A stretch of 64,000 bases of DNA, from positions 4,143 to 68,142 of the forward strand of contig JAHKAY010000029.1 of assembly GCA_018825785.1 (NCBI GenBank), in the 5' to 3' direction. The notes below the pieces were generated by a model that saw nothing but the letters and a program-made list of their open reading frames with translations, was not told the origin of the DNA and did no database searches. The DNA is from Chloroflexota bacterium. Lineage in GTDB: Bacteria; Chloroflexota; Dehalococcoidia; JACVQG01; JAHKAY01. This document shows positions 8,876 to 24,332 of this stretch, one piece after another. How positions within the stretch are numbered: the stretch's first letter is position 1; every line of letters begins with the position of its first letter. The position numbers and the translations under genes were made by a program.

Positions 8876-9490
8876 ATGACGGCGGCCATCCTCCTCAGCG
8901 GCATATACATTGCCTGCGAGCTGATAGCCAATGTCACCGCCTCAAAGCCTGTAGCGGTGGGTGGTATTGTGGTGCCTGCCGCCGTCTTTATCTATGCCCT
9001 GACCTTCACCCTGGTGGACCTCATCAACGACCGGCTGGGCAAAGACGGGGCCAGGAAGGTGGTCTATACCGCTTTTGCCGCCAATATCCTCTTGGCGGGC
9101 TATATCCAGTTTTCCGTAAACCTACCCCCCGCCCCCTTTTACCAAGGGCAGGAGGCCTTCCGGGCGGTCCTGGGGTCCACCCCCCGGATTGTGGCGGCCA
9201 GCCTGACCGCCTATATCATCTCCAGCCTCATTGACATAGAGGTCTTTGCCTGGTGGCGGGAGAGGGTGGGGAGGTACCGCTGGGCCCGGGTCCTGGCCTC
9301 CAACGCCGTTTCCACCCTGGTGGACAGCATCGTTTTCATCACCGCTGCCTTCTGGGGGGTCTTCCCCGTCCTGCCCCTTATTCGGGGGCAGTATATCGTG
9401 AAGATGGCGGTGACGGGGGTGAGCCTGCCCCTTATCTACCTGGTGAGGGCGGCCCGCCCTGCCCCGGCCCGGGAGGCGGGATGGAAGTAG
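8876..9490 (+). CDS. yhhQ: queuosine precursor transporter (YhhQ/COG1738, VUT family)
   Basis: 204-aa polytopic membrane protein with the YhhQ-family pattern (VVYTAFAANILLAGY ... STLVDSIVFI). Confidence 0.75.
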   Translation: MTAAILLSGIYIACELIANVTASKPVAVGGIVVPAAVFIYALTFTLVDLINDRLGKDGARKVVYTAFAANILLAGYIQFSVNLPPAPFYQGQEAFRAVLGSTPRIVAASLTAYIISSLIDIEVFAWWRERVGRYRWARVLASNAVSTLVDSIVFITAAFWGVFPVLPLIRGQYIVKMAVTGVSLPLIYLVRAARPAPAREAGWK

Positions 9491-19293: not shown

Positions 19294-20070
19294 CTAGCCC
19301 AGGTAATAGAAGCGGTTGAAGAGGTGTGCCAGGGCCTCCTCCGCCAGGGAGGAGGCGAAACCCCCCAGCAACCTCTCCCGAAGGCTCCTGGGGGGCCTGG
19401 CGTAGGAATATCGGCGGGGGATTTTGGCCATCTCCGCCGCCAGGTCCAGGGCACGCTCCATATCCCCCAGCTCGTCCACCAGGCCCAGCTCCTTGCCCCT
19501 CCTGGCGGTGAACGCCTCCCCGGTCGCCAGCTCCCTCACCCTATCCGGGTCCAGCTTCCTCCCCCGGGCCACCGTCTGGATAAAGTCCTCGTAGTACTCC
19601 AGGACCAGCTCCTGGTCCTTCTGCGCCTCCTCTGCGGTGGGCTCCCGCCAGAAGGCCCCCGCGTCCTTGAGGCGGCCCCCTTTGGCCACGGTGAACTTTA
19701 CCCCCAGCTTCTGGAGGAGTTCGGGCACTACCGGGCGGACGGAGATGACCCCGATGGAGCCCACCAGGGCGGAGGGCAGGGCCACTATCTTGTGGCAGGC
19801 TGAGGCCAGCATATAGGCCCCGGAGGCCCCCATCCCCCGCACAAAGGCCACCAGTGGCTTCTGGGAGGCCAGCCGGGAGGCGGTGGTGAAAAGGTAGTCC
19901 GAGGCGGTAACCAGTCCCCCCGGGGAATCAATCTCCAGGACCACCCCCTTGACCCGCCGGCTTCTCCTCAGCCCCTCCAGCAGGCGGATATAGGTCATCA
20001 GCCGGGGCCCTCCCCCCAGGAGGCCGGTGAACTCCACTACCCCCAGCCGGGGCCTTGCCCAGAAAAACAT
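19294..20070 (-). CDS. sppA: signal peptide peptidase SppA (S49 family, 36K type)
   Basis: 258 aa with the S49 catalytic region (GMGASGAYMLASACHKIVALPSALVGSIGV). SD ggagggagg upstream. Confidence 0.85.
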   Translation of the reverse strand: MFFWARPRLGVVEFTGLLGGGPRLMTYIRLLEGLRRSRRVKGVVLEIDSPGGLVTASDYLFTTASRLASQKPLVAFVRGMGASGAYMLASACHKIVALPSALVGSIGVISVRPVVPELLQKLGVKFTVAKGGRLKDAGAFWREPTAEEAQKDQELVLEYYEDFIQTVARGRKLDPDRVRELATGEAFTARRGKELGLVDELGDMERALDLAAEMAKIPRRYSYARPPRSLRERLLGGFASSLAEEALAHLFNRFYYLG

Positions 20071-20204
20071 GTTCCCTCCCTCCGGGGCATTATAGCCGAA
20101 AATAGAAAAAGACCCCCGGGGCCTTCTTCACCAACTCCCTATCGTGCGTTCACATTCCGTTCACATGGCTCCTCCATAATATCAGGTGAAAGGAGGTAAG
20201 AGGA

Positions 20205-20771
20205 ATGAAAAAGAGATGGTTCATGGTCCTGATGGTGGTGGGGCTCCTGGCCCTGCTGGCCGTCCCGGCGGCGGTCCTGGCCCAAAGCGACGAGGCGACA
20301 GTGGGATACTATCCCGCCTACCGTGGCCTGTGGGACGTGAGCGCCCAGGAACGGGTTGCTCAGCTCCTGGGGATTACCCCCGCGGAGCTCCTGACTCAGC
20401 TGGAGGGTGGGGCCACCCTGAGCGAGCTGGCTGCGGCCAAGGGGGTGCCCACCGAGAGCCTGGTGGCGACCATACTGGCACCCCACAAAGAAATGCTGGA
20501 CATCAAGGTGAAGTATGGCCGCCTGACCCCTGAGCAGGCCCAGCAGGCGCTGGAGACCGTCACCGCGAGGGTGCAGGCGCTGGTGCAGACCAGATTCACC
20601 GCCACCTCCACCTGGGGTCCCGGTACTGGCCCCTACTGCCCCATGATGGGGGGCGGGTACCAGGGTGACCCTAATGCTACCCCCGGCCTCAACGCTCCCG
20701 GCCGTGGCAGGGGCTGGGGCAGGGGTGGTGGCATGATGGGCCGTGGCATGATGGGTGGCTGGGACTGGTAG
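20205..20771 (+). CDS. periplasmic Spy/CpxP/ZraP-family protein with a Gly/Met-rich C-terminal tail
   Basis: Signal peptide, an LTPEQAQQALE (LTxxQ) motif and a ZraP-like tail (GGGYQG ... GGGMMGRGMMGGWDW). SD aaaggagg upstream. Confidence 0.6.
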   Translation: MKKRWFMVLMVVGLLALLAVPAAVLAQSDEATVGYYPAYRGLWDVSAQERVAQLLGITPAELLTQLEGGATLSELAAAKGVPTESLVATILAPHKEMLDIKVKYGRLTPEQAQQALETVTARVQALVQTRFTATSTWGPGTGPYCPMMGGGYQGDPNATPGLNAPGRGRGWGRGGGMMGRGMMGGWDW

Positions 20772-20780
20772 GTTGGCCCG

Positions 20781-20817
20781 GAGGGGCGGGGCAGAACCCC
20801 GCCCCTCTTCTTTTTTG
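20781..20817 (+). terminator. intrinsic terminator after the ZraP-like gene
   Basis: gaggggcgggg-cagaa-ccccgcccctc stem-loop followed by ttcttttttg. Confidence 0.7.
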
Positions 20818-20845
20818 CCTCTCTTCCCTAGGCTATAATGGGGCT

Positions 20846-21541
20846 GTGGCCGGGAAGAGAATACTGGTGGTGGAGGATGAGAGGAAGATTATCGACATCC
20901 TCCGCCTCTATCTGGAAAGGGAGGGCTTTGAGGTCTTCCACGCCCTCACCGCCGGGGAGGCCCGGGAGGCATTTTCACGCCTCAGGCCCGACTTGGTGGT
21001 GCTGGACCTGATCCTCCCCGACGGCGACGGCCTGGAGGTCTGCCGGGCCTTCCGCAAGGATTCTTCAATCCCCATTCTCATGCTCACAGCGCGTGACGAG
21101 GAGGTGGACCGGGTGGTAGGGCTGGAGATAGGGGCCGATGACTATGTGACCAAGCCCTTCAGCCCCCGGGAGGTGGTGGCCCGGGTGAAGGCGGTGCTTA
21201 GAAGGAGCCAGCCCCCCGCTCCTCCCCAGGAAATAAAGGCGGGGGAGCTGGTCCTGGACCTGGACAAGTATGAGGTCCGTTGCCGGGGGCAGGTGGTGGA
21301 GCTTACCTCCACCGAGTTCAGGCTCCTCTCCGTCCTGGCCCAGCACCCGGGGAGGGTCTTCACCCGCATGCAGTTCCTGGACCAGGTCCAGGGGGAGGCC
21401 TTTGAGGGCTACGAACGGACCATTGATGCCCACATCAAGAACCTGCGCCAGAAGCTTTCCCCCCTCGGCTGCCATTGTATTGCCACAGTGAGGGGGGTAG
21501 GCTACAAGCTGGAGGTGGGGGATGCCGCGGCTGGCCCTTAA
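20846..21541 (+). CDS. OmpR-family response regulator
   Basis: REC domain (VVEDE ... DLVVLDLILPDGDG) plus a winged-helix domain. GTG start 6 nt downstream of a TATAAT box. Confidence 0.9.
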   Translation: MAGKRILVVEDERKIIDILRLYLEREGFEVFHALTAGEAREAFSRLRPDLVVLDLILPDGDGLEVCRAFRKDSSIPILMLTARDEEVDRVVGLEIGADDYVTKPFSPREVVARVKAVLRRSQPPAPPQEIKAGELVLDLDKYEVRCRGQVVELTSTEFRLLSVLAQHPGRVFTRMQFLDQVQGEAFEGYERTIDAHIKNLRQKLSPLGCHCIATVRGVGYKLEVGDAAAGP

Positions 21542-22628
21542 GCTGGCAGGGGCCTTTGTCCTGGTGGCGGTGGTGGCGGTGGCCCTGGCCGCCTACCTGG
21601 TGAGCCGTTCCACCCAGGGGGAGTTCGGTCTCTACCTGGAGGATATCGGCCGGATGGGGGAGGGAATGGGGCGGGGGATGATGTGGGGGAGGGGCCCCAT
21701 GATGGGGCTGGGCCAGGAGGAGCAGGCCTTCCTCCAGGGAGTAAACCGCTCCCTGTGGGCGGCGGGGATCCTGGCGGCAGGGGTGGCAGCTTTGCTGGCC
21801 CTCTTCTTCTCCCGATACCTGGCCCAGCCCCTGCGCCGGATGGCAGGGGCGGCGAAGAAAATGGCTGGCGGGGACTTCAGCCAGAGGGTAGAAACAGGCT
21901 CTCGGGACGAGATGGGGGAGCTGGCCCGGGCTATGAATGCCATGGCCGAGGCCCTGGGGAAACAGGAGGAGCTGAGGCGACAGTTTGTGGCCGAGGTGGC
22001 CCACGAGCTCCGCACCCCTCTCACGGTAATCCAGGGAAATATGGAGGCCATGGTGGACGGGGTCCTGCCCCCCACCCCGGAGCACCTCTCCTCCCTCAAC
22101 AGCCAAGTGGTGGTCCTCTCCCGCCTGGTCACCGACCTGCGCACCCTGTCCCTGGCCGATGCCGGCAGGCTGGAGGTCAAGCCCGTCCCCCTGGATATCG
22201 GTGAGGTAGCCGGGCAGGCCCTGGTAGTGGTAGGGCCCCAGGCGGGGGAGAAGGCCATTCGCCTGGAAAGGGACCTCCCCCCGGCCCTGCCCCGGGTGCT
22301 GGCGGACCCTCAGAGGGTGCTCCAGGTCCTGCACAATCTCCTCGCCAACGCTCTGCGCTACACCCCGGCGGGGGGGCGCATACTCTTTGAGGCCAGGCCC
22401 GCCCCCGGCGAGCTGGTCCTCTCCCTTTCCGATACTGGCCCTGGCATCCCGCCGGAGGACATGCCCTACCTCTTCCAGCGCTTTCACGGACACCGTTCCG
22501 GAGGCTCGGGCATTGGCCTGGCGGTGGTGAAGGCCTTGGTGGAGGCCCAGGGGGGGAGGGTCTGGGCGGAGAGCCGGGTGGGACAGGGCAGCACCTTCTA
22601 TTTCACCCTCCCCCTGGCGGCAAAATGA
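21522..22628 (+). CDS. sensor histidine kinase (HAMP-HisKA-HATPase) with a Gly/Met-rich periplasmic loop
   Basis: Two transmembrane helices, HAMP, H-box (EVAHELRTPLT), and N, G1 and G2 boxes. The periplasmic segment is MGEGMGRGMMWGRGPMMGLG. Confidence 0.9.
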   Translation: MPRLALKLAGAFVLVAVVAVALAAYLVSRSTQGEFGLYLEDIGRMGEGMGRGMMWGRGPMMGLGQEEQAFLQGVNRSLWAAGILAAGVAALLALFFSRYLAQPLRRMAGAAKKMAGGDFSQRVETGSRDEMGELARAMNAMAEALGKQEELRRQFVAEVAHELRTPLTVIQGNMEAMVDGVLPPTPEHLSSLNSQVVVLSRLVTDLRTLSLADAGRLEVKPVPLDIGEVAGQALVVVGPQAGEKAIRLERDLPPALPRVLADPQRVLQVLHNLLANALRYTPAGGRILFEARPAPGELVLSLSDTGPGIPPEDMPYLFQRFHGHRSGGSGIGLAVVKALVEAQGGRVWAESRVGQGSTFYFTLPLAAK

Positions 22629-23272
22629 TAAGTCCGGTCTTCATCGCCGCCCTCCCCTATTTTGCAGGGCTAAGGGCCGAGGAGATAGAAGACATCCGCC
22701 GGGCGGTCTTTGAGAGGACCTGTGACCGCAATGAGGTCATCGCCATGGAAGGGGAGCCCTGCCTGGCGGTGTATTTTGTGGCCAGGGGCTCGGTGAAGAT
22801 AGTCAAGACCTCGGTGGACGGGAGGGAACAGGTGCTGAGGGTGATGCGGCACGGCGATTCCTTCAACGATGTCCCCCTCTTTGATGATGGCCCCAACCCC
22901 GCCACCGCCGTGTCCCTGGAGCCCACCATTATATGGGGCATTCCCAAGGAGAAGATGCTGGAGTTCCTGCGCCGTTACCCCAGGGTAGCCGAGAATGTCC
23001 TCCGGGTCTTTTCCCAGCGGCTGAGGCACCTGGTGGCACTGGTGGAGGACCTCTCCTTCCGCCATGTTACCTCCCGCCTTGCCAAGATGCTCCTGGAATA
23101 TGAGGGGGAAGGGGAGCACCGGCTCACCCAGCAGGAGATGGCCGCCCTGGTGGGCACCGCCCGGGAGATGGTGGGGCGGAGCCTGAAAGGCCTGGAGGCC
23201 ATGGGGGCCATAAAGGCAGAAAGAAAGCACATCACAATCCTGAACCGCGGGGTCCTCCAGGAGCTGGTATAG
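22625..23272 (+). CDS. Crp/Fnr family transcriptional regulator
   Basis: cNMP-binding domain plus a C-terminal HTH (QQEMAALVGTAREMVGRSLKGLE). ATGA overlap with the HK gene. Confidence 0.85.
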   Translation: MISPVFIAALPYFAGLRAEEIEDIRRAVFERTCDRNEVIAMEGEPCLAVYFVARGSVKIVKTSVDGREQVLRVMRHGDSFNDVPLFDDGPNPATAVSLEPTIIWGIPKEKMLEFLRRYPRVAENVLRVFSQRLRHLVALVEDLSFRHVTSRLAKMLLEYEGEGEHRLTQQEMAALVGTAREMVGRSLKGLEAMGAIKAERKHITILNRGVLQELV

Positions 23273-23334
23273 GGCGAGACAAAAGTCGCAGACATCTTTA
23301 CTATCCAGACTAGAATAGAAGAGGAGGGAGAGAA

Positions 23335-23568
23335 ATGAGAAGAAATCTCCTCTTGGATGTTTCGCAACGCCCGCCCCGGGAGAGCCAGAGACGTCTCCTG
23401 GACGTCTTTGACCGGGCTATGACGGGGGATAGCATAAAGCTCGTAAGCGACTCTGCTGTCGCACCTATCTGCCAGGTCCTCTATGAGGAAAGGGAAGGCC
23501 AGTTCCTCTGCCATATGCATAAAGAAGCCCCCGGGGAATGGGTCGCCCGGATCATAAAGACCCGCTAG
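23335..23568 (+). CDS. DUF2249-like small protein
   Basis: 77 aa with the pattern LDV..RPP.E....L.VFD....GDSI.LV.D.AVAP.CQ ... EGQF ... EAPGEWVARI, matching the DUF2249 fold typically associated with Crp/Fnr regulators. Confidence 0.5.
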   Translation: MRRNLLLDVSQRPPRESQRRLLDVFDRAMTGDSIKLVSDSAVAPICQVLYEEREGQFLCHMHKEAPGEWVARIIKTR

Positions 23569-23603
23569 CCCCTCCCATCCCCGGCGAGCCAGGGCCCTGG
23601 GCC

Positions 23604-24332
23604 ATGAGCCTCACCGCCATGGTGGTGGGGATAGGGGTTGCAGGAGTTTCATGGGCCGCTCTTTTCTTTGTCCTCTCGGCCCTGTCTCTGTTCCTGCTCC
23701 GGGAGCCCCTGGAGACCCTGGGCAGGGGGAATTTCGGCCGCCGGCAGGGCCTCTGGGGCTTGATATACCTGGGCCTGGCGCTTCTCTTTGCGGTGCCCCT
23801 TCTCCTCTGGGGGCGATGGTTTATCCTGCCGCTGGGGGCTGTCGCCGGCCTTGCCCTCCTGGGGCACATCCTCCTGGTGAGGCACAGGAAGGAGAGGGCC
23901 TGGTGGGGGGAGCTGGTGGGGATTGGGGGGCTGTCCCTGGGGGCCTGGGGTGCCTATTATGCCTCCCTGGGGGTCCTGAATGAGATAGGGGCCTTCCTGG
24001 GGCTGCTGGTCTTCCTTTACCTGGGCTCCAGCGTCTTCTTTGTCAAGATGATGGTGCGCCGCAAGGGGGAGTGCCCCTTAAGGAAGCGCCTGGGGCTGGG
24101 GCGGGATGTCCTCCTCTATCAAGCCCTACTCTGGCCTCTCCTCCTGGGCCTGGGCCTGGGGGGGCTGGTTCCCCTCTGGACCCTGCTGGCCTTCGTCCCC
24201 CTCGCTTTCAAGGTATTCCTGGCCGTCTTTCTCGGGGCGAGGCCTGCGTCTATCCGGGCCCTGGGGAGGCAGGAGGTGGCCTACAGCACCATTTTCGCCG
24301 TTATCCTTGTCCTGGCCTTCCGCCTCTCCTAG
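23604..24332 (+). CDS. YwiC-like family membrane protein
   Basis: About 240 aa, polytopic and very hydrophobic, with a conserved RHRKER-type loop. Chosen start is the ATG at 23604 (MSLTAMVVG). Confidence 0.5.
   Translation: MSLTAMVVGIGVAGVSWAALFFVLSALSLFLLREPLETLGRGNFGRRQGLWGLIYLGLALLFAVPLLLWGRWFILPLGAVAGLALLGHILLVRHRKERAWWGELVGIGGLSLGAWGAYYASLGVLNEIGAFLGLLVFLYLGSSVFFVKMMVRRKGECPLRKRLGLGRDVLLYQALLWPLLLGLGLGGLVPLWTLLAFVPLAFKVFLAVFLGARPASIRALGRQEVAYSTIFAVILVLAFRLS

What the first reader, a model, noticed from the sequence alone, without database searches (positions are those of the whole stretch)
20205..22628. Spy/ZraP-like periplasmic protein and adjacent sensor kinase share Gly/Met-rich motifs
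The secreted protein combines an LTPEQ (LTxxQ, CpxP/Spy/ZraP) motif with a ZraP-like tail GGGYQG...GGGMMGRGMMGGWDW (nt 20631-20768). The periplasmic loop of the neighbouring histidine kinase (nt ~21654-21720) contains MGEGMGRGMMWGRGPMMGLG, the same GMMG/W pattern. That suggests direct sensing of the same ligand (a soft metal such as Zn/Cu, or misfolded envelope protein) or sensor-accessory mimicry. The operon continues in tight coupling into a Crp/Fnr regulator, then a DUF2249 protein and a YwiC-like membrane protein.
Basis: partly seen in the sequence, partly recalled or inferred. Interest (0 to 1): 0.55.

Follow-up and report, generated by a model that had tools for sequence, protein, structure and literature searches.

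The report
Met/Gly-motif sensor kinase and its secreted target
A module found across Chloroflexota pairs a membrane sensor kinase with a secreted protein it appears to control, and both carry the same exposed methionine/glycine-rich motif, most likely to bind one ligand (probably a soft metal such as copper).

Summary
In six-frame translation of the 64-kb window, only two 20-residue stretches have at least 4 Met and 6 Gly. They are the tail of the secreted protein (20205-20771) and the outer loop of the histidine kinase (21522-22628).

Two corrections: an OmpR-type response regulator (20846-21541) lies between the two genes, and the secreted protein is a separate transcription unit with its own terminator.

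The secreted protein is not a Spy/CpxP/ZraP member by sequence or predicted fold. It is a DUF2680/YckD-type helical domain with a disordered tail. In 128 relatives (all named ones Chloroflexota), the C-terminal GGMMG(G/R)W is the family signature.

About three quarters of distinct related loci keep the order secreted protein, regulator, kinase. Most partner kinases carry a positional (H/D)x3M..MM..MG..MM motif just before the second membrane helix.

The secreted-protein gene is preceded by TTCAC-N6-TTCAC direct repeats placed where a -35 would sit. This is the CreB-type box, and it recurs in 27 of 39 loci.

Best model: the kinase senses an extracytoplasmic ligand, most likely Cu(I) or another soft metal, and induces a Met-rich buffer protein. 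This resembles ZraSR-ZraP or CusRS/PcoE. The ligand is inferred only from gene neighbours. I rate it a new variant of a known kind.

The parts
20127..20164 (+). Response-regulator box. Three TTCAC half-sites at 20127, 20149 and 20160 (offsets 0, 22 and 33 nt, so in 11-bp phase). The last two form an exact TTCAC-N6-TTCAC.
   Evidence: Conserved in 8 close relatives and in distant loci. Same sequence as the cre/blr tag bound by CreB/BlrA (PMC4689548).
20175..20180 (+). -10-like CATAAT, 10 nt after the last half-site. No recognisable -35, so this looks like an activator-dependent promoter. AAGGAGG ribosome-binding site at 20190-20196.
   Evidence: The same spacing (box, about 10-12 nt, TAnnnT) is seen in other loci.
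20205..20771 (+). Secreted DUF2680/YckD-type protein, 188 aa. Signal peptide residues 1-26 (nt 20205-20282). Five-helix core residues about 40-130 (nt 20322-20594), including LTPEQ at nt 20523-20537. Disordered Gly/Met/Trp tail residues 135-188 (nt 20607-20768), ending GRGMMGGWDW.
20780..20818 (+). Intrinsic-terminator-like hairpin (12-bp stem, 10 G-C pairs) followed by a T-run.
   Evidence: Conserved in relatives.
20834..20839 (+). TATAAT located 6 nt before the regulator's GTG start. Suggests the regulator-kinase pair has its own promoter, possibly giving a leaderless mRNA.
   Evidence: conserved in 6 relatives. Inference only.
20846..21541 (+). OmpR/PhoB-family response regulator, 231 aa. 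Closest curated family is CreB.
   Evidence: Response_reg 5.5e-28, Trans_reg_C 9.7e-25. (CreB 245.8 bits, cutoff 273).
21522..22628 (+). Histidine kinase, 368 aa. TM1 about residues 8-27, extracytoplasmic loop about 28-77 (nt 21603-21752), TM2 about 78-97, then HAMP, HisKA and HATPase domains.
21651..21713 (+). Met/Gly-rich sensor motif RMGEGMGRGMMWGRGPMMGLG (residues 44-64). It sits between the conserved EFxxYL helix and the EEQAFLQGVNRSLW entry into TM2.
22625..23272 (+). Crp/Fnr-family regulator whose start overlaps the kinase stop. Present in this lineage only, so not part of the conserved module.
   Evidence: Present in L022 and absent in L005.

Best explanation
This is a three-gene signalling module conserved across Chloroflexota.

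Anatomy and proposed mechanism:
1. A two-pass histidine kinase exposes a roughly 50-residue outer loop. Its only distinctive feature is a positionally conserved Met/Gly motif, (H/D)-x3-M..MM..G-G-x-M-G..MM, just before the second membrane helix.
2. The kinase phosphorylates an OmpR/CreB-like response regulator.
3. The regulator binds TTCAC direct repeats spaced 11 bp apart, placed where a -35 would be. It thereby switches on the upstream gene, which is a separate transcription unit.
4. That gene encodes a secreted protein with a small helical DUF2680 core and a disordered tail made of the same GMMG units, ending in GGMMG(G/R)W.

Most likely ligand and role: the Met thioethers, helped by the nearby His/Asp and Trp, bind a soft metal ion outside the cytoplasm. 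Cu(I) is the most likely, with Ag(I) and possibly Zn/Cd as alternatives. The kinase loop acts as the sensor. The induced tail protein acts as a buffer that lowers free ligand and so feeds back on the sensor. This is what ZraP does for ZraSR, and what PcoE/SilE and CusF do for their two-component systems.

Shown by computation here: the anatomy, conservation of both motifs, the gene order, and the box.
Inferred: that this regulator binds this box, the identity of the ligand, and the feedback.

My sub-probabilities:
- Kinase-regulator pair controls the secreted-protein gene: about 0.85.
- Both motifs bind the same ligand: about 0.6.
- That ligand is a soft metal: about 0.45.
The overall confidence of 0.45 is for the full statement, ligand included.
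For: Motif rarity and conservation:
- These are the only two GM-rich windows in the 64 kb.
- Tail family: 127 of 128 relatives contain MMG/GMM, 112 of 128 within the last 25 residues, and 92 of 128 have Trp in the last 8. G181 and M182 are invariant in alignment A1. The tail is predicted disordered and the core has pLDDT 89-97.
- Partner kinases carrying MMG-type loops: 11 of 13 in the first set, plus L047, L049 and L050, and weaker forms in L051 and L052.
- Among 143 kinase relatives clustered at 50% identity, 48 have MMG/GMM in the sensor part, against 2 in the roughly 270-aa remainder.
- The aligned short loops show fixed positions for the Met residues, and His in 19 of 33.

Gene order: secreted protein, regulator, kinase is kept in Dehalococcoidia, Anaerolineae and Caldilineaceae loci.

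Regulatory box:
- TYCAH-N6-TYCAH lies within 200 nt upstream in 27 of 39 loci, against a background of 0.008 per 200 nt. Most of the remainder are one mismatch away or have a mis-called start.
- The box equals the CreB/BlrA tag (PMC4689548), and CreB is the regulator's best curated match.
- The same box also precedes other GMMG proteins, in L014 and in the L042 SHOCT operon.

Metal-related neighbours:
- L050: CsoR, a YHS protein and an HMA P-type ATPase directly upstream.
- L042/L043: CopC-CopD fusion, ArsR and MerR.
- L009/L012: ArsR/SmtB and a ZntA/CadA-like ATPase immediately upstream, plus a ZitB-like CDF.
- L026: P-type ATPase with a YHS domain.
- L001: ArsR/SmtB.
- That is a metal transporter within a few genes in 4 of about 24 distinct contexts. 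My rough estimate, assuming 1-3 such genes per genome, is about twenty-fold enrichment.

Precedents:
- C. glutamicum CopS senses copper with a 31-aa loop holding His and Met, and its regulator binds an 11-bp-phased repeat that contains TCTTCA on the other strand (PMC3140484).
- CusF binds Cu(I) through Met plus a Trp cation-pi contact, and PcoE is a metal sponge (both cited in PMC7558416).
Against: - No experiment exists, and the ligand rests on neighbourhood only.
- About 80% of contexts, including this window, have no metal gene nearby.
- The Dehalogenimonas ATPase scores higher on Zn/Cd models than on Cu models, and Met is a poor Zn ligand.
- This window's kinase has Asp where most relatives have His.
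- Neither kinase nor regulator reaches the curated cut-off of the heavy-metal two-component families: TIGR01386 149.6 bits vs 292.55, and TIGR01387 147.3 vs 279.2.
- In one locus (L030) the box precedes an HtrA-like protease, which points to envelope quality control.
- Binding of the regulator to the box is inferred from analogy and conservation, not shown.
- The very strict conservation of the extreme C-terminus GGMMGxW suggests recognition by a partner protein, not only loose metal chelation.
Confidence: 0.45

Rival explanations
1. Envelope or secretion-stress system of the CpxAR-CpxP/Spy or CssRS-HtrA type. The Gly/Met segments bind unfolded or mislocalised proteins, as methionine-rich surfaces do in SRP54 and in the G/M region of Sis1 (from my own knowledge). 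The secreted protein would be a chaperone or kinase inhibitor, and its C-terminal ...GW-COOH would be read by a PDZ protease. Metals would be only one of several inducers.
For: - The kinase's best curated match is BaeS (247.7 bits), and BaeR is the regulator's fourth-best match at 223 bits.
- The box precedes an HtrA-like Trypsin_2+PDZ protease in L030.
- A signal-peptide peptidase (S49) is divergent from the gene in this window and in L005.
- The conserved aromatic C-terminus fits PDZ recognition (inference).
- An LTxxQ-like YGxLTxEQA element is conserved.
Against: - No sequence or fold relation to Spy, CpxP or ZraP.
- The protease link is seen in only one locus.
- The motif has fixed Met positions plus a His in the kinase loop, which looks more like a defined binding site than a generic hydrophobic surface.
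- Recurrent neighbours are metal genes, not chaperones.
Confidence: 0.2
2. Oxidant sensor. The exposed Met residues are oxidised to sulfoxide by peroxide or chlorine species, which switches the kinase on, as reported for E. coli HprS (from my own knowledge). The induced Met-rich tail protein would be a sacrificial sink.
For: - Met-only motifs are highly oxidisable.
- A thioredoxin-like protein sits directly upstream in L050.
- An Fe/Mn superoxide dismutase is next to the gene in L015.
- A hemerythrin gene lies nearby in L008.
- Periplasmic Met oxidation and repair under copper or chlorine stress is documented (PMC9302797 and PMC10083560, listed).
Against: - No methionine sulfoxide reductase gene was identified: none appears in the Pfam-annotated contexts or among the neighbour proteins I scanned individually. 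Not every neighbouring ORF was scanned.
- Many hosts are strict anaerobes such as Dehalogenimonas and other Dehalococcoidia.
- The conserved His and Trp, and the strict C-terminal motif, are not explained.
Confidence: 0.13
3. Coincidental low-complexity sequence with no shared function.
For: Gly-rich, high-GC genomes do generate simple repeats.
Against: - These are the only two such segments in the 64 kb.
- The motif is conserved in 127 of 128 relatives and in most partner kinases down to 33-49% identity.
- Met residues sit at fixed alignment positions.
- The catalytic parts of the same kinases lack the motif (2 of 143).
Confidence: 0.02

Closest known systems
ZraP with ZraSR (E. coli / Salmonella zinc-associated envelope stress system)
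   Same: - A small secreted helical protein whose gene sits next to a two-component system.
- It contains an LTxxQ element and a Gly/Met-rich C-terminal tail ending in Trp. ZraP ends ...GGGHMGMGNW; the protein here ends ...GRGMMGGWDW.
- In ZraP's case it acts as an induced accessory or buffer that feeds back on the sensor (feedback role from my own knowledge).
   Different: - No detectable homology or shared fold.
- The ZraP tail holds His and Cys, whereas this tail is almost purely Met/Gly/Trp/Arg.
- ZraR is a sigma-54 activator and ZraS has a large periplasmic domain without this motif (my own knowledge). Here the regulator is OmpR-type and the kinase loop itself carries the motif.
CusRS-CusF and PcoRS/SilRS-PcoE/SilE (proteobacterial copper/silver systems)
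   Same: - A two-component system induces a periplasmic Met-rich metal binder.
- PcoE and SilE are disordered metal sponges, and CusF uses Met plus a Trp cation-pi contact (cited in PMC7558416).
   Different: - Not members: TIGR01386 and TIGR01387 scores are about half the cut-offs.
- CusS senses through a folded periplasmic domain, not a Met/Gly loop.
- PcoE and SilE use MxxH/HxxM motifs (my own knowledge).
CopRS of Corynebacterium glutamicum
   Same: - A kinase in an Actinobacterium (Gram-positive) with a short (31-aa) outer loop holding His and Met residues proposed to sense copper.
- An OmpR-type regulator that binds an 11-bp-phased direct repeat, TGAAGATTTnnTGAAGATTT. Its complement contains TCTTCA, as in several boxes here (PMC3140484).
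   Different: - The CopS loop has only two Met and no Gly/Met repeats.
- No secreted protein carrying the same motif is described there.
- Homology to the proteins here was not tested.
CreBC / BlrAB
   Same: - The regulator's best curated match is CreB.
- The box TTCAC-N6-TTCAC is identical to the cre/blr tag (PMC4689548).
   Different: - The score is below the CreB cut-off (245.8 vs 273).
- The kinase matches CreC only weakly (118 bits vs cut-off 356).
- No CreD-like target gene is present.
CpxAR-CpxP and BaeSR-Spy
   Same: Logic of a two-component system that induces a small extracytoplasmic helical protein. The kinase's best curated match is BaeS.
   Different: BaeS and BaeR cut-offs are not reached (247.7 vs 500; 223.3 vs 380). 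The secreted protein is not in the LTXXQ family.
DUF2680 / YckD (Pfam PF10925)
   Same: The helical hairpin at residues 85-128 matches the profile. NCBI names the identical protein 'YckD family protein'. 24 of 35 relatives match.
   Different: B. subtilis YckD has no known function (PMC4992311). The Met/Gly tail, the link to a two-component system and the box are not part of the Pfam description.

Membership tests
Spy/CpxP/ZraP (Pfam LTXXQ PF07813, Metal_resist PF13801) | Significant match to the family profile | tested here: not met
   No LTXXQ or Metal_resist hit for the window protein at E<=0.1. Neither family is among the 25 most frequently matched families shown for the 35 relatives at E<=1. 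The PDB profile search finds no Spy, CpxP or ZraP chain.
Spy/CpxP/ZraP | Two LTXXQ motifs (as in Spy and CpxP) at the turns of a long helical hairpin | tested here: not met
   Only one LTxxQ is present (LTPEQ, residues 107-111). It is conserved in the family as YGxLTxEQA.
Spy/CpxP/ZraP | Cradle-shaped alpha-helical hairpin fold | tested here: not met
ZraP specifically | Gly/Met-rich C-terminal tail ending in Trp | tested here: met
   3LAY ends GGGHMGMGNW. The window protein ends GGGMMGRGMMGGWDW. This is a resemblance in composition, not alignable homology.
DUF2680 / YckD (PF10925) | Profile match at or above the gathering score | tested here: inconclusive
   The window protein scores 21.5 bits against a cut-off of 25 (E 2.6e-4, residues 85-128). 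24 of 35 relatives match, with a best E-value of 8e-10. NCBI names the identical sequence 'YckD family protein'.
OmpR/PhoB-family response regulator | Receiver domain plus winged-helix Trans_reg_C domain | tested here: met
   Response_reg 97.8 bits and Trans_reg_C 86.9 bits.
CreB (NF008296 equivalog) | Score at or above the curated cut-off | tested here: not met
   245.8 bits against a cut-off of 273.
CreB | Target sites of the form TTCAC-N6-TTCAC | tested here: met
   An exact match lies at 20149-20164, upstream of the secreted-protein gene, and is conserved across loci. The tag definition comes from PMC4689548. Binding itself was not tested.
Classical transmembrane histidine kinase | Two membrane helices, then HAMP, HisKA and HATPase_c domains | tested here: met
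   (domains). (hydrophobic segments at residues 8-27 and 78-97).
BaeS (NF012163, NF007837) | Score at or above the curated cut-off | tested here: not met
   247.7 bits vs 500, and 229.1 vs 603. The match covers residues 70-366 only, not the sensor part.
Heavy-metal sensor kinase / regulator (TIGR01386, TIGR01387) | Score at or above the curated cut-off | tested here: not met
   149.6 bits vs 292.55, and 147.3 vs 279.2.
Metal-binding Met-rich proteins (functional class, e.g. PcoE/SilE, CusF) | Measured binding of Cu(I)/Ag(I) | not testable with these tools
   Only composition and gene neighbourhood are available.

The most novel reading that the evidence does not exclude
The strictly conserved C-terminal GGMMG(G/R)W of the secreted protein is a docking peptide. 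It would pair directly with the matching Met/Gly/Trp segment of the kinase loop, with or without a bridging metal ion, and possibly with the same segment on SHOCT membrane proteins. Sensor and accessory would then recognise each other through a shared motif. That would be a mode of two-component feedback, and a Met/Gly 'zipper', not described before, with a PDZ protease possibly reading the same C-terminus.
Probability: 0.15. Interest if true: 0.75.

Novelty: new variant of a known kind. Interest (0 to 1): 0.57.

Why it matters
- Almost nothing is known about what two-component systems of Chloroflexota sense. This includes the organohalide-respiring Dehalococcoidia used in bioremediation.
- The sensing element here is reduced to a roughly 20-residue motif with fixed Met positions. 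The output promoter and its box are defined, and the induced protein carries the same motif. The signal question therefore becomes directly testable with two peptides, one reporter and one gel shift.
- The result gives a first functional context to DUF2680/YckD proteins and to the Met/Gly N-termini of SHOCT membrane proteins.
- If the ligand is Cu(I), this would be a Met-only extracytoplasmic metal sensor in this phylum, and a compact part for biosensors.
- If instead the tail docks on the loop, it would be a new feedback principle.

Tried and rejected
1. The search for related loci with the 35-sequence alignment failed because no stretch was conserved enough. A 15-sequence subset worked.
4. 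A PDB search with the tail peptide alone gave only noise.
5. A recent duplication between tail and loop was rejected because codon usage differs.
6. Pair-specific co-variation of tail and loop was not found (two earlier attempts had a cutting error and a script error).
7. Looking for further box copies in the window found none convincing.
8. Looking for metal genes in the window (DKTGT, HMA and Met/His motifs) found none.
9. Literature searches for YckD/DUF2680, GMMG motifs, SHOCT with copper, and Met-rich kinase loops found no description of this module.
10. The Crp/Fnr, DUF2249 and YwiC genes were considered as parts of the system and rejected as lineage-specific neighbours.
Full report
WHAT IS THERE

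The region holds, all on the + strand:
- a 188-aa protein (20205-20771);
- an OmpR-type response regulator (20846-21541);
- a HAMP/HisKA/HATPase histidine kinase (21522-22628);
- a Crp/Fnr regulator (22625-23272);
- a DUF2249 protein (23335-23568);
- a YwiC-like membrane protein (23538-24332).

The 188-aa protein has a Sec-type signal peptide. An identical sequence in NCBI is named 'YckD family protein [Chloroflexi bacterium]', so the window comes from a Chloroflexota genome.

IS THE SHARED MOTIF MORE THAN CHANCE?

Yes.
- In all six reading frames of the 64-kb window, only two 20-residue windows contain at least 4 Met and 6 Gly. They are the tail of the secreted protein and the outer loop of the kinase.
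- The two share the hexapeptide MGRGMM. The codons differ (25 of 45 nt identical), so this is not a recent DNA duplication.

THE SECRETED PROTEIN

Pfam gives only a sub-threshold DUF2680 match (21.5 bits, cut-off 25, residues 85-128). However, 24 of 35 relatives match that family, with a best E-value of 8e-10.

No LTXXQ or Metal_resist family match was found. A profile search of PDB sequences finds no Spy, CpxP or ZraP chain. hhalign against those three gives 4.5% probability, aligning only the local Y-x-x-LTxEQ element.

The comparison with the ZraP tail is nevertheless apt. Salmonella ZraP (3LAY) ends ...GGGHMGMGNW.

In the family (702 hits, and every named one is Chloroflexota) the tail is the signature rather than filler:
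- 127 of 128 sequences inspected contain MMG/GMM;
- 112 have it in the last 25 residues;
- 92 have Trp in the last 8;
- the typical end is GFGGMMG(G/R)W;
- in alignment A1 the invariant columns include G181 and M182.

Longer relatives (L051, L052) are tandem duplications of the core, each copy preceded by GMMG linkers.

THE KINASE

Hydrophobic segments at residues 8-27 and 78-97 leave a loop of about 50 residues outside the membrane.

Thirteen distinct kinases encoded next to relatives of the secreted protein were read. Eleven carry MMG-type segments at the same place, including some with long extra domains. Five more partner kinases read later carry the motif too, in weaker form in L051 and L052.

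Among the 150 best kinase relatives at 50% clustering, 143 could be parsed. Of these, 48 have MMG/GMM in the sensor part and only 2 have it in the roughly 270-aa catalytic remainder.

Aligning the short-loop kinases shows a positional motif:
TM1 - T..EF..YL - (H/D)x3M - x2 - MM - GGxMG - ..MM - GxxExxFLxxVNxSLW - TM2.
His is present in 19 of 33 sequences. The window's kinase has Asp at that position.

THE THREE GENES ARE ONE MODULE

The order secreted protein, regulator, kinase recurs in about three quarters of distinct related loci that have enough downstream sequence. This holds at 33-49% protein identity and in Dehalococcoidia, Anaerolineae and Caldilineaceae.

Crp/Fnr and YwiC are present only in the closest lineage. 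They are absent from L005, whose kinase is 93% identical.

HOW THEY ARE WIRED

A 12-bp-stem terminator-like hairpin follows the secreted-protein gene (20780-20818). A TATAAT lies 6 nt before the regulator's GTG start.

Upstream of the secreted-protein gene lie three TTCAC half-sites at 20127, 20149 and 20160, in 11-bp phase. The last ends 10 nt before a CATAAT, and there is no -35. This is the layout of a PhoB/OmpR-class activator-dependent promoter (from established knowledge).

The element is conserved in close relatives and in distant ones. TYCAH-N6-TYCAH occurs within 200 nt upstream in 27 of 39 loci, against 0.008 per 200 nt elsewhere in the same loci. Most of the remaining loci have a one-mismatch copy or a mis-called start.

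TTCAC-N6-TTCAC is the published binding tag of CreB/BlrA (PMC4689548). CreB is the best curated match of this regulator, though below its cut-off.

The same box also precedes:
- a second GMMG-rich small secreted protein in L014;
- a SHOCT plus GMMG-protein operon in L042;
- an HtrA-like protease in L030.

The kinase-regulator pair therefore very probably controls a small regulon of Met/Gly-motif envelope proteins.

WHAT IS SENSED

This is inference. Gene neighbours are mostly unrelated housekeeping genes, and the window itself holds no metal gene.

The only recurrent functional theme is metal homeostasis:
- CsoR, a YHS protein and an HMA P-type ATPase directly upstream in L050;
- a CopC-CopD fusion, ArsR and MerR around the GMMG genes in L042/L043;
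- ArsR/SmtB and a ZntA/CadA-like ATPase immediately upstream, plus a ZitB-like CDF, in two Dehalogenimonas genomes;
- a P-type ATPase with a YHS domain in L026;
- ArsR/SmtB in L001.

A metal transporter within a few genes in 4 of about 24 distinct contexts is, by my rough estimate, some twenty-fold more than expected. That estimate is not a computed statistic.

Met thioethers with a neighbouring His and Trp are what extracytoplasmic Cu(I)/Ag(I) sites use in CusF, and PcoE is a disordered metal sponge (cited in PMC7558416). C. glutamicum CopS senses copper with a 31-aa His/Met loop (PMC3140484).

I therefore favour a soft-metal sensor plus an induced buffer protein that works like ZraSR-ZraP or CusRS/PcoE.

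Against this:
- most contexts lack metal genes;
- the Dehalogenimonas pump looks more like a Zn/Cd pump than a Cu pump;
- the heavy-metal two-component family cut-offs are not met;
- the HtrA link fits a broader envelope-stress role.

RIVALS

An envelope or secretion-stress system, and a Met-oxidation sensor, remain possible. They are listed with their evidence in the rival explanations. Chance low complexity is effectively excluded.

Direct 'mimicry' between tail and loop receives no support from co-variation. Partners share no more Met-containing 4-mers or 5-mers than non-partners (p 0.66 and 0.82). A generic motif could still interact, so this is kept as the novel case.

NOVELTY

I found no description of this module, of the motif in kinase loops, or of a function for DUF2680/YckD. 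The logic (a two-component system plus an induced extracytoplasmic accessory protein) is well known. What is new is a phylum-wide version in which the sensor loop and the induced proteins carry the same Met/Gly motif. I rate it a new variant of a known kind, of moderate to good interest, chiefly because it is so directly testable.

Noticed in passing
window 20834-20848: TATAAT sits only 6 nt before the response regulator's GTG start, and this is conserved in 6 relatives. The regulator-kinase mRNA may be leaderless and start with GUG. In the window, the spacing to a possible TTGCCT -35 is 13 nt, against 17 nt in L005.
   Followed up: partly
L001 6714-7013; L011 3487-3723; L024 1553-1789; L047 9635-9874; L048 9639-9875; L042 3686-3943: Small SHOCT-domain membrane proteins recur inside or beside the module. 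Those in L001, L011, L024 and L042 begin with MMGGSWGW-like Met/Gly/Trp N-termini; the L047/L048 ones begin MMWP..FGWGFGG, which is Gly/Trp-rich but lacks MMG. In L042 the regulator box precedes the SHOCT gene. A SHOCT membrane protein was reported as silver-induced in Haloferax (PMC10694973).
   Followed up: partly
L030 7608-8807 (-) with box at about 9000-9015; L030 9267-10034 (+): An HtrA-like protease (Trypsin_2 + PDZ) is preceded by the same direct-repeat box. Divergent from it lies a 255-aa secreted protein extremely rich in Met and Gln (MGQMGQMMGQM...). No two-component system lies in the 12 kb held.
   Followed up: partly
L014 5320-5691 and 9038-9844: A second small GMMG/W-rich secreted protein carries an identical box (TTCACAAGGTATTCAC). 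Downstream of the kinase is a 268-aa secreted protein made of MTDMMNQYMGGNWDG-like repeats. This locus's kinase has a long outer domain with only a weak motif.
   Followed up: no
L051 7001-7936; L052 7001-7969; L053 7001-8002: Anaerolineae and Caldilineaceae versions of the secreted protein are tandem duplications of the helical core, with GMMG linkers before each copy. They still sit upstream of a regulator and kinase, and are preceded by a TCTCCA-type variant of the box in L051 and L052 (L053 upstream was not examined).
   Followed up: partly
window 22625-24332: The Crp/Fnr gene overlaps the kinase stop by 4 nt. DUF2249 and YwiC overlap each other by 31 nt and have their own promoter-like site (23289-23316). 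Crp and YwiC are missing from L005 although the kinase there is 93% identical, which indicates a recent insertion or deletion.
   Followed up: partly
window 19294-20070 (-) and 20105-20129: A signal-peptide-peptidase-like S49 protease is divergent from the secreted-protein gene, also in L005. A G+C-rich hairpin with a T-run on the minus strand lies in the shared intergenic region and is not conserved in more distant relatives.
   Followed up: no
L019 1208-4050: A close relative (73% identical) of the secreted protein carries the same box. It is followed by a DUF4405 protein and a heliorhodopsin instead of the two-component system.
   Followed up: no
L009 6676-7185: In one Dehalogenimonas genome the response regulator downstream of the secreted-protein gene is broken into fragments and the kinase is absent. 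A ZitB-like CDF transporter occupies the site on the other strand.
   Followed up: no
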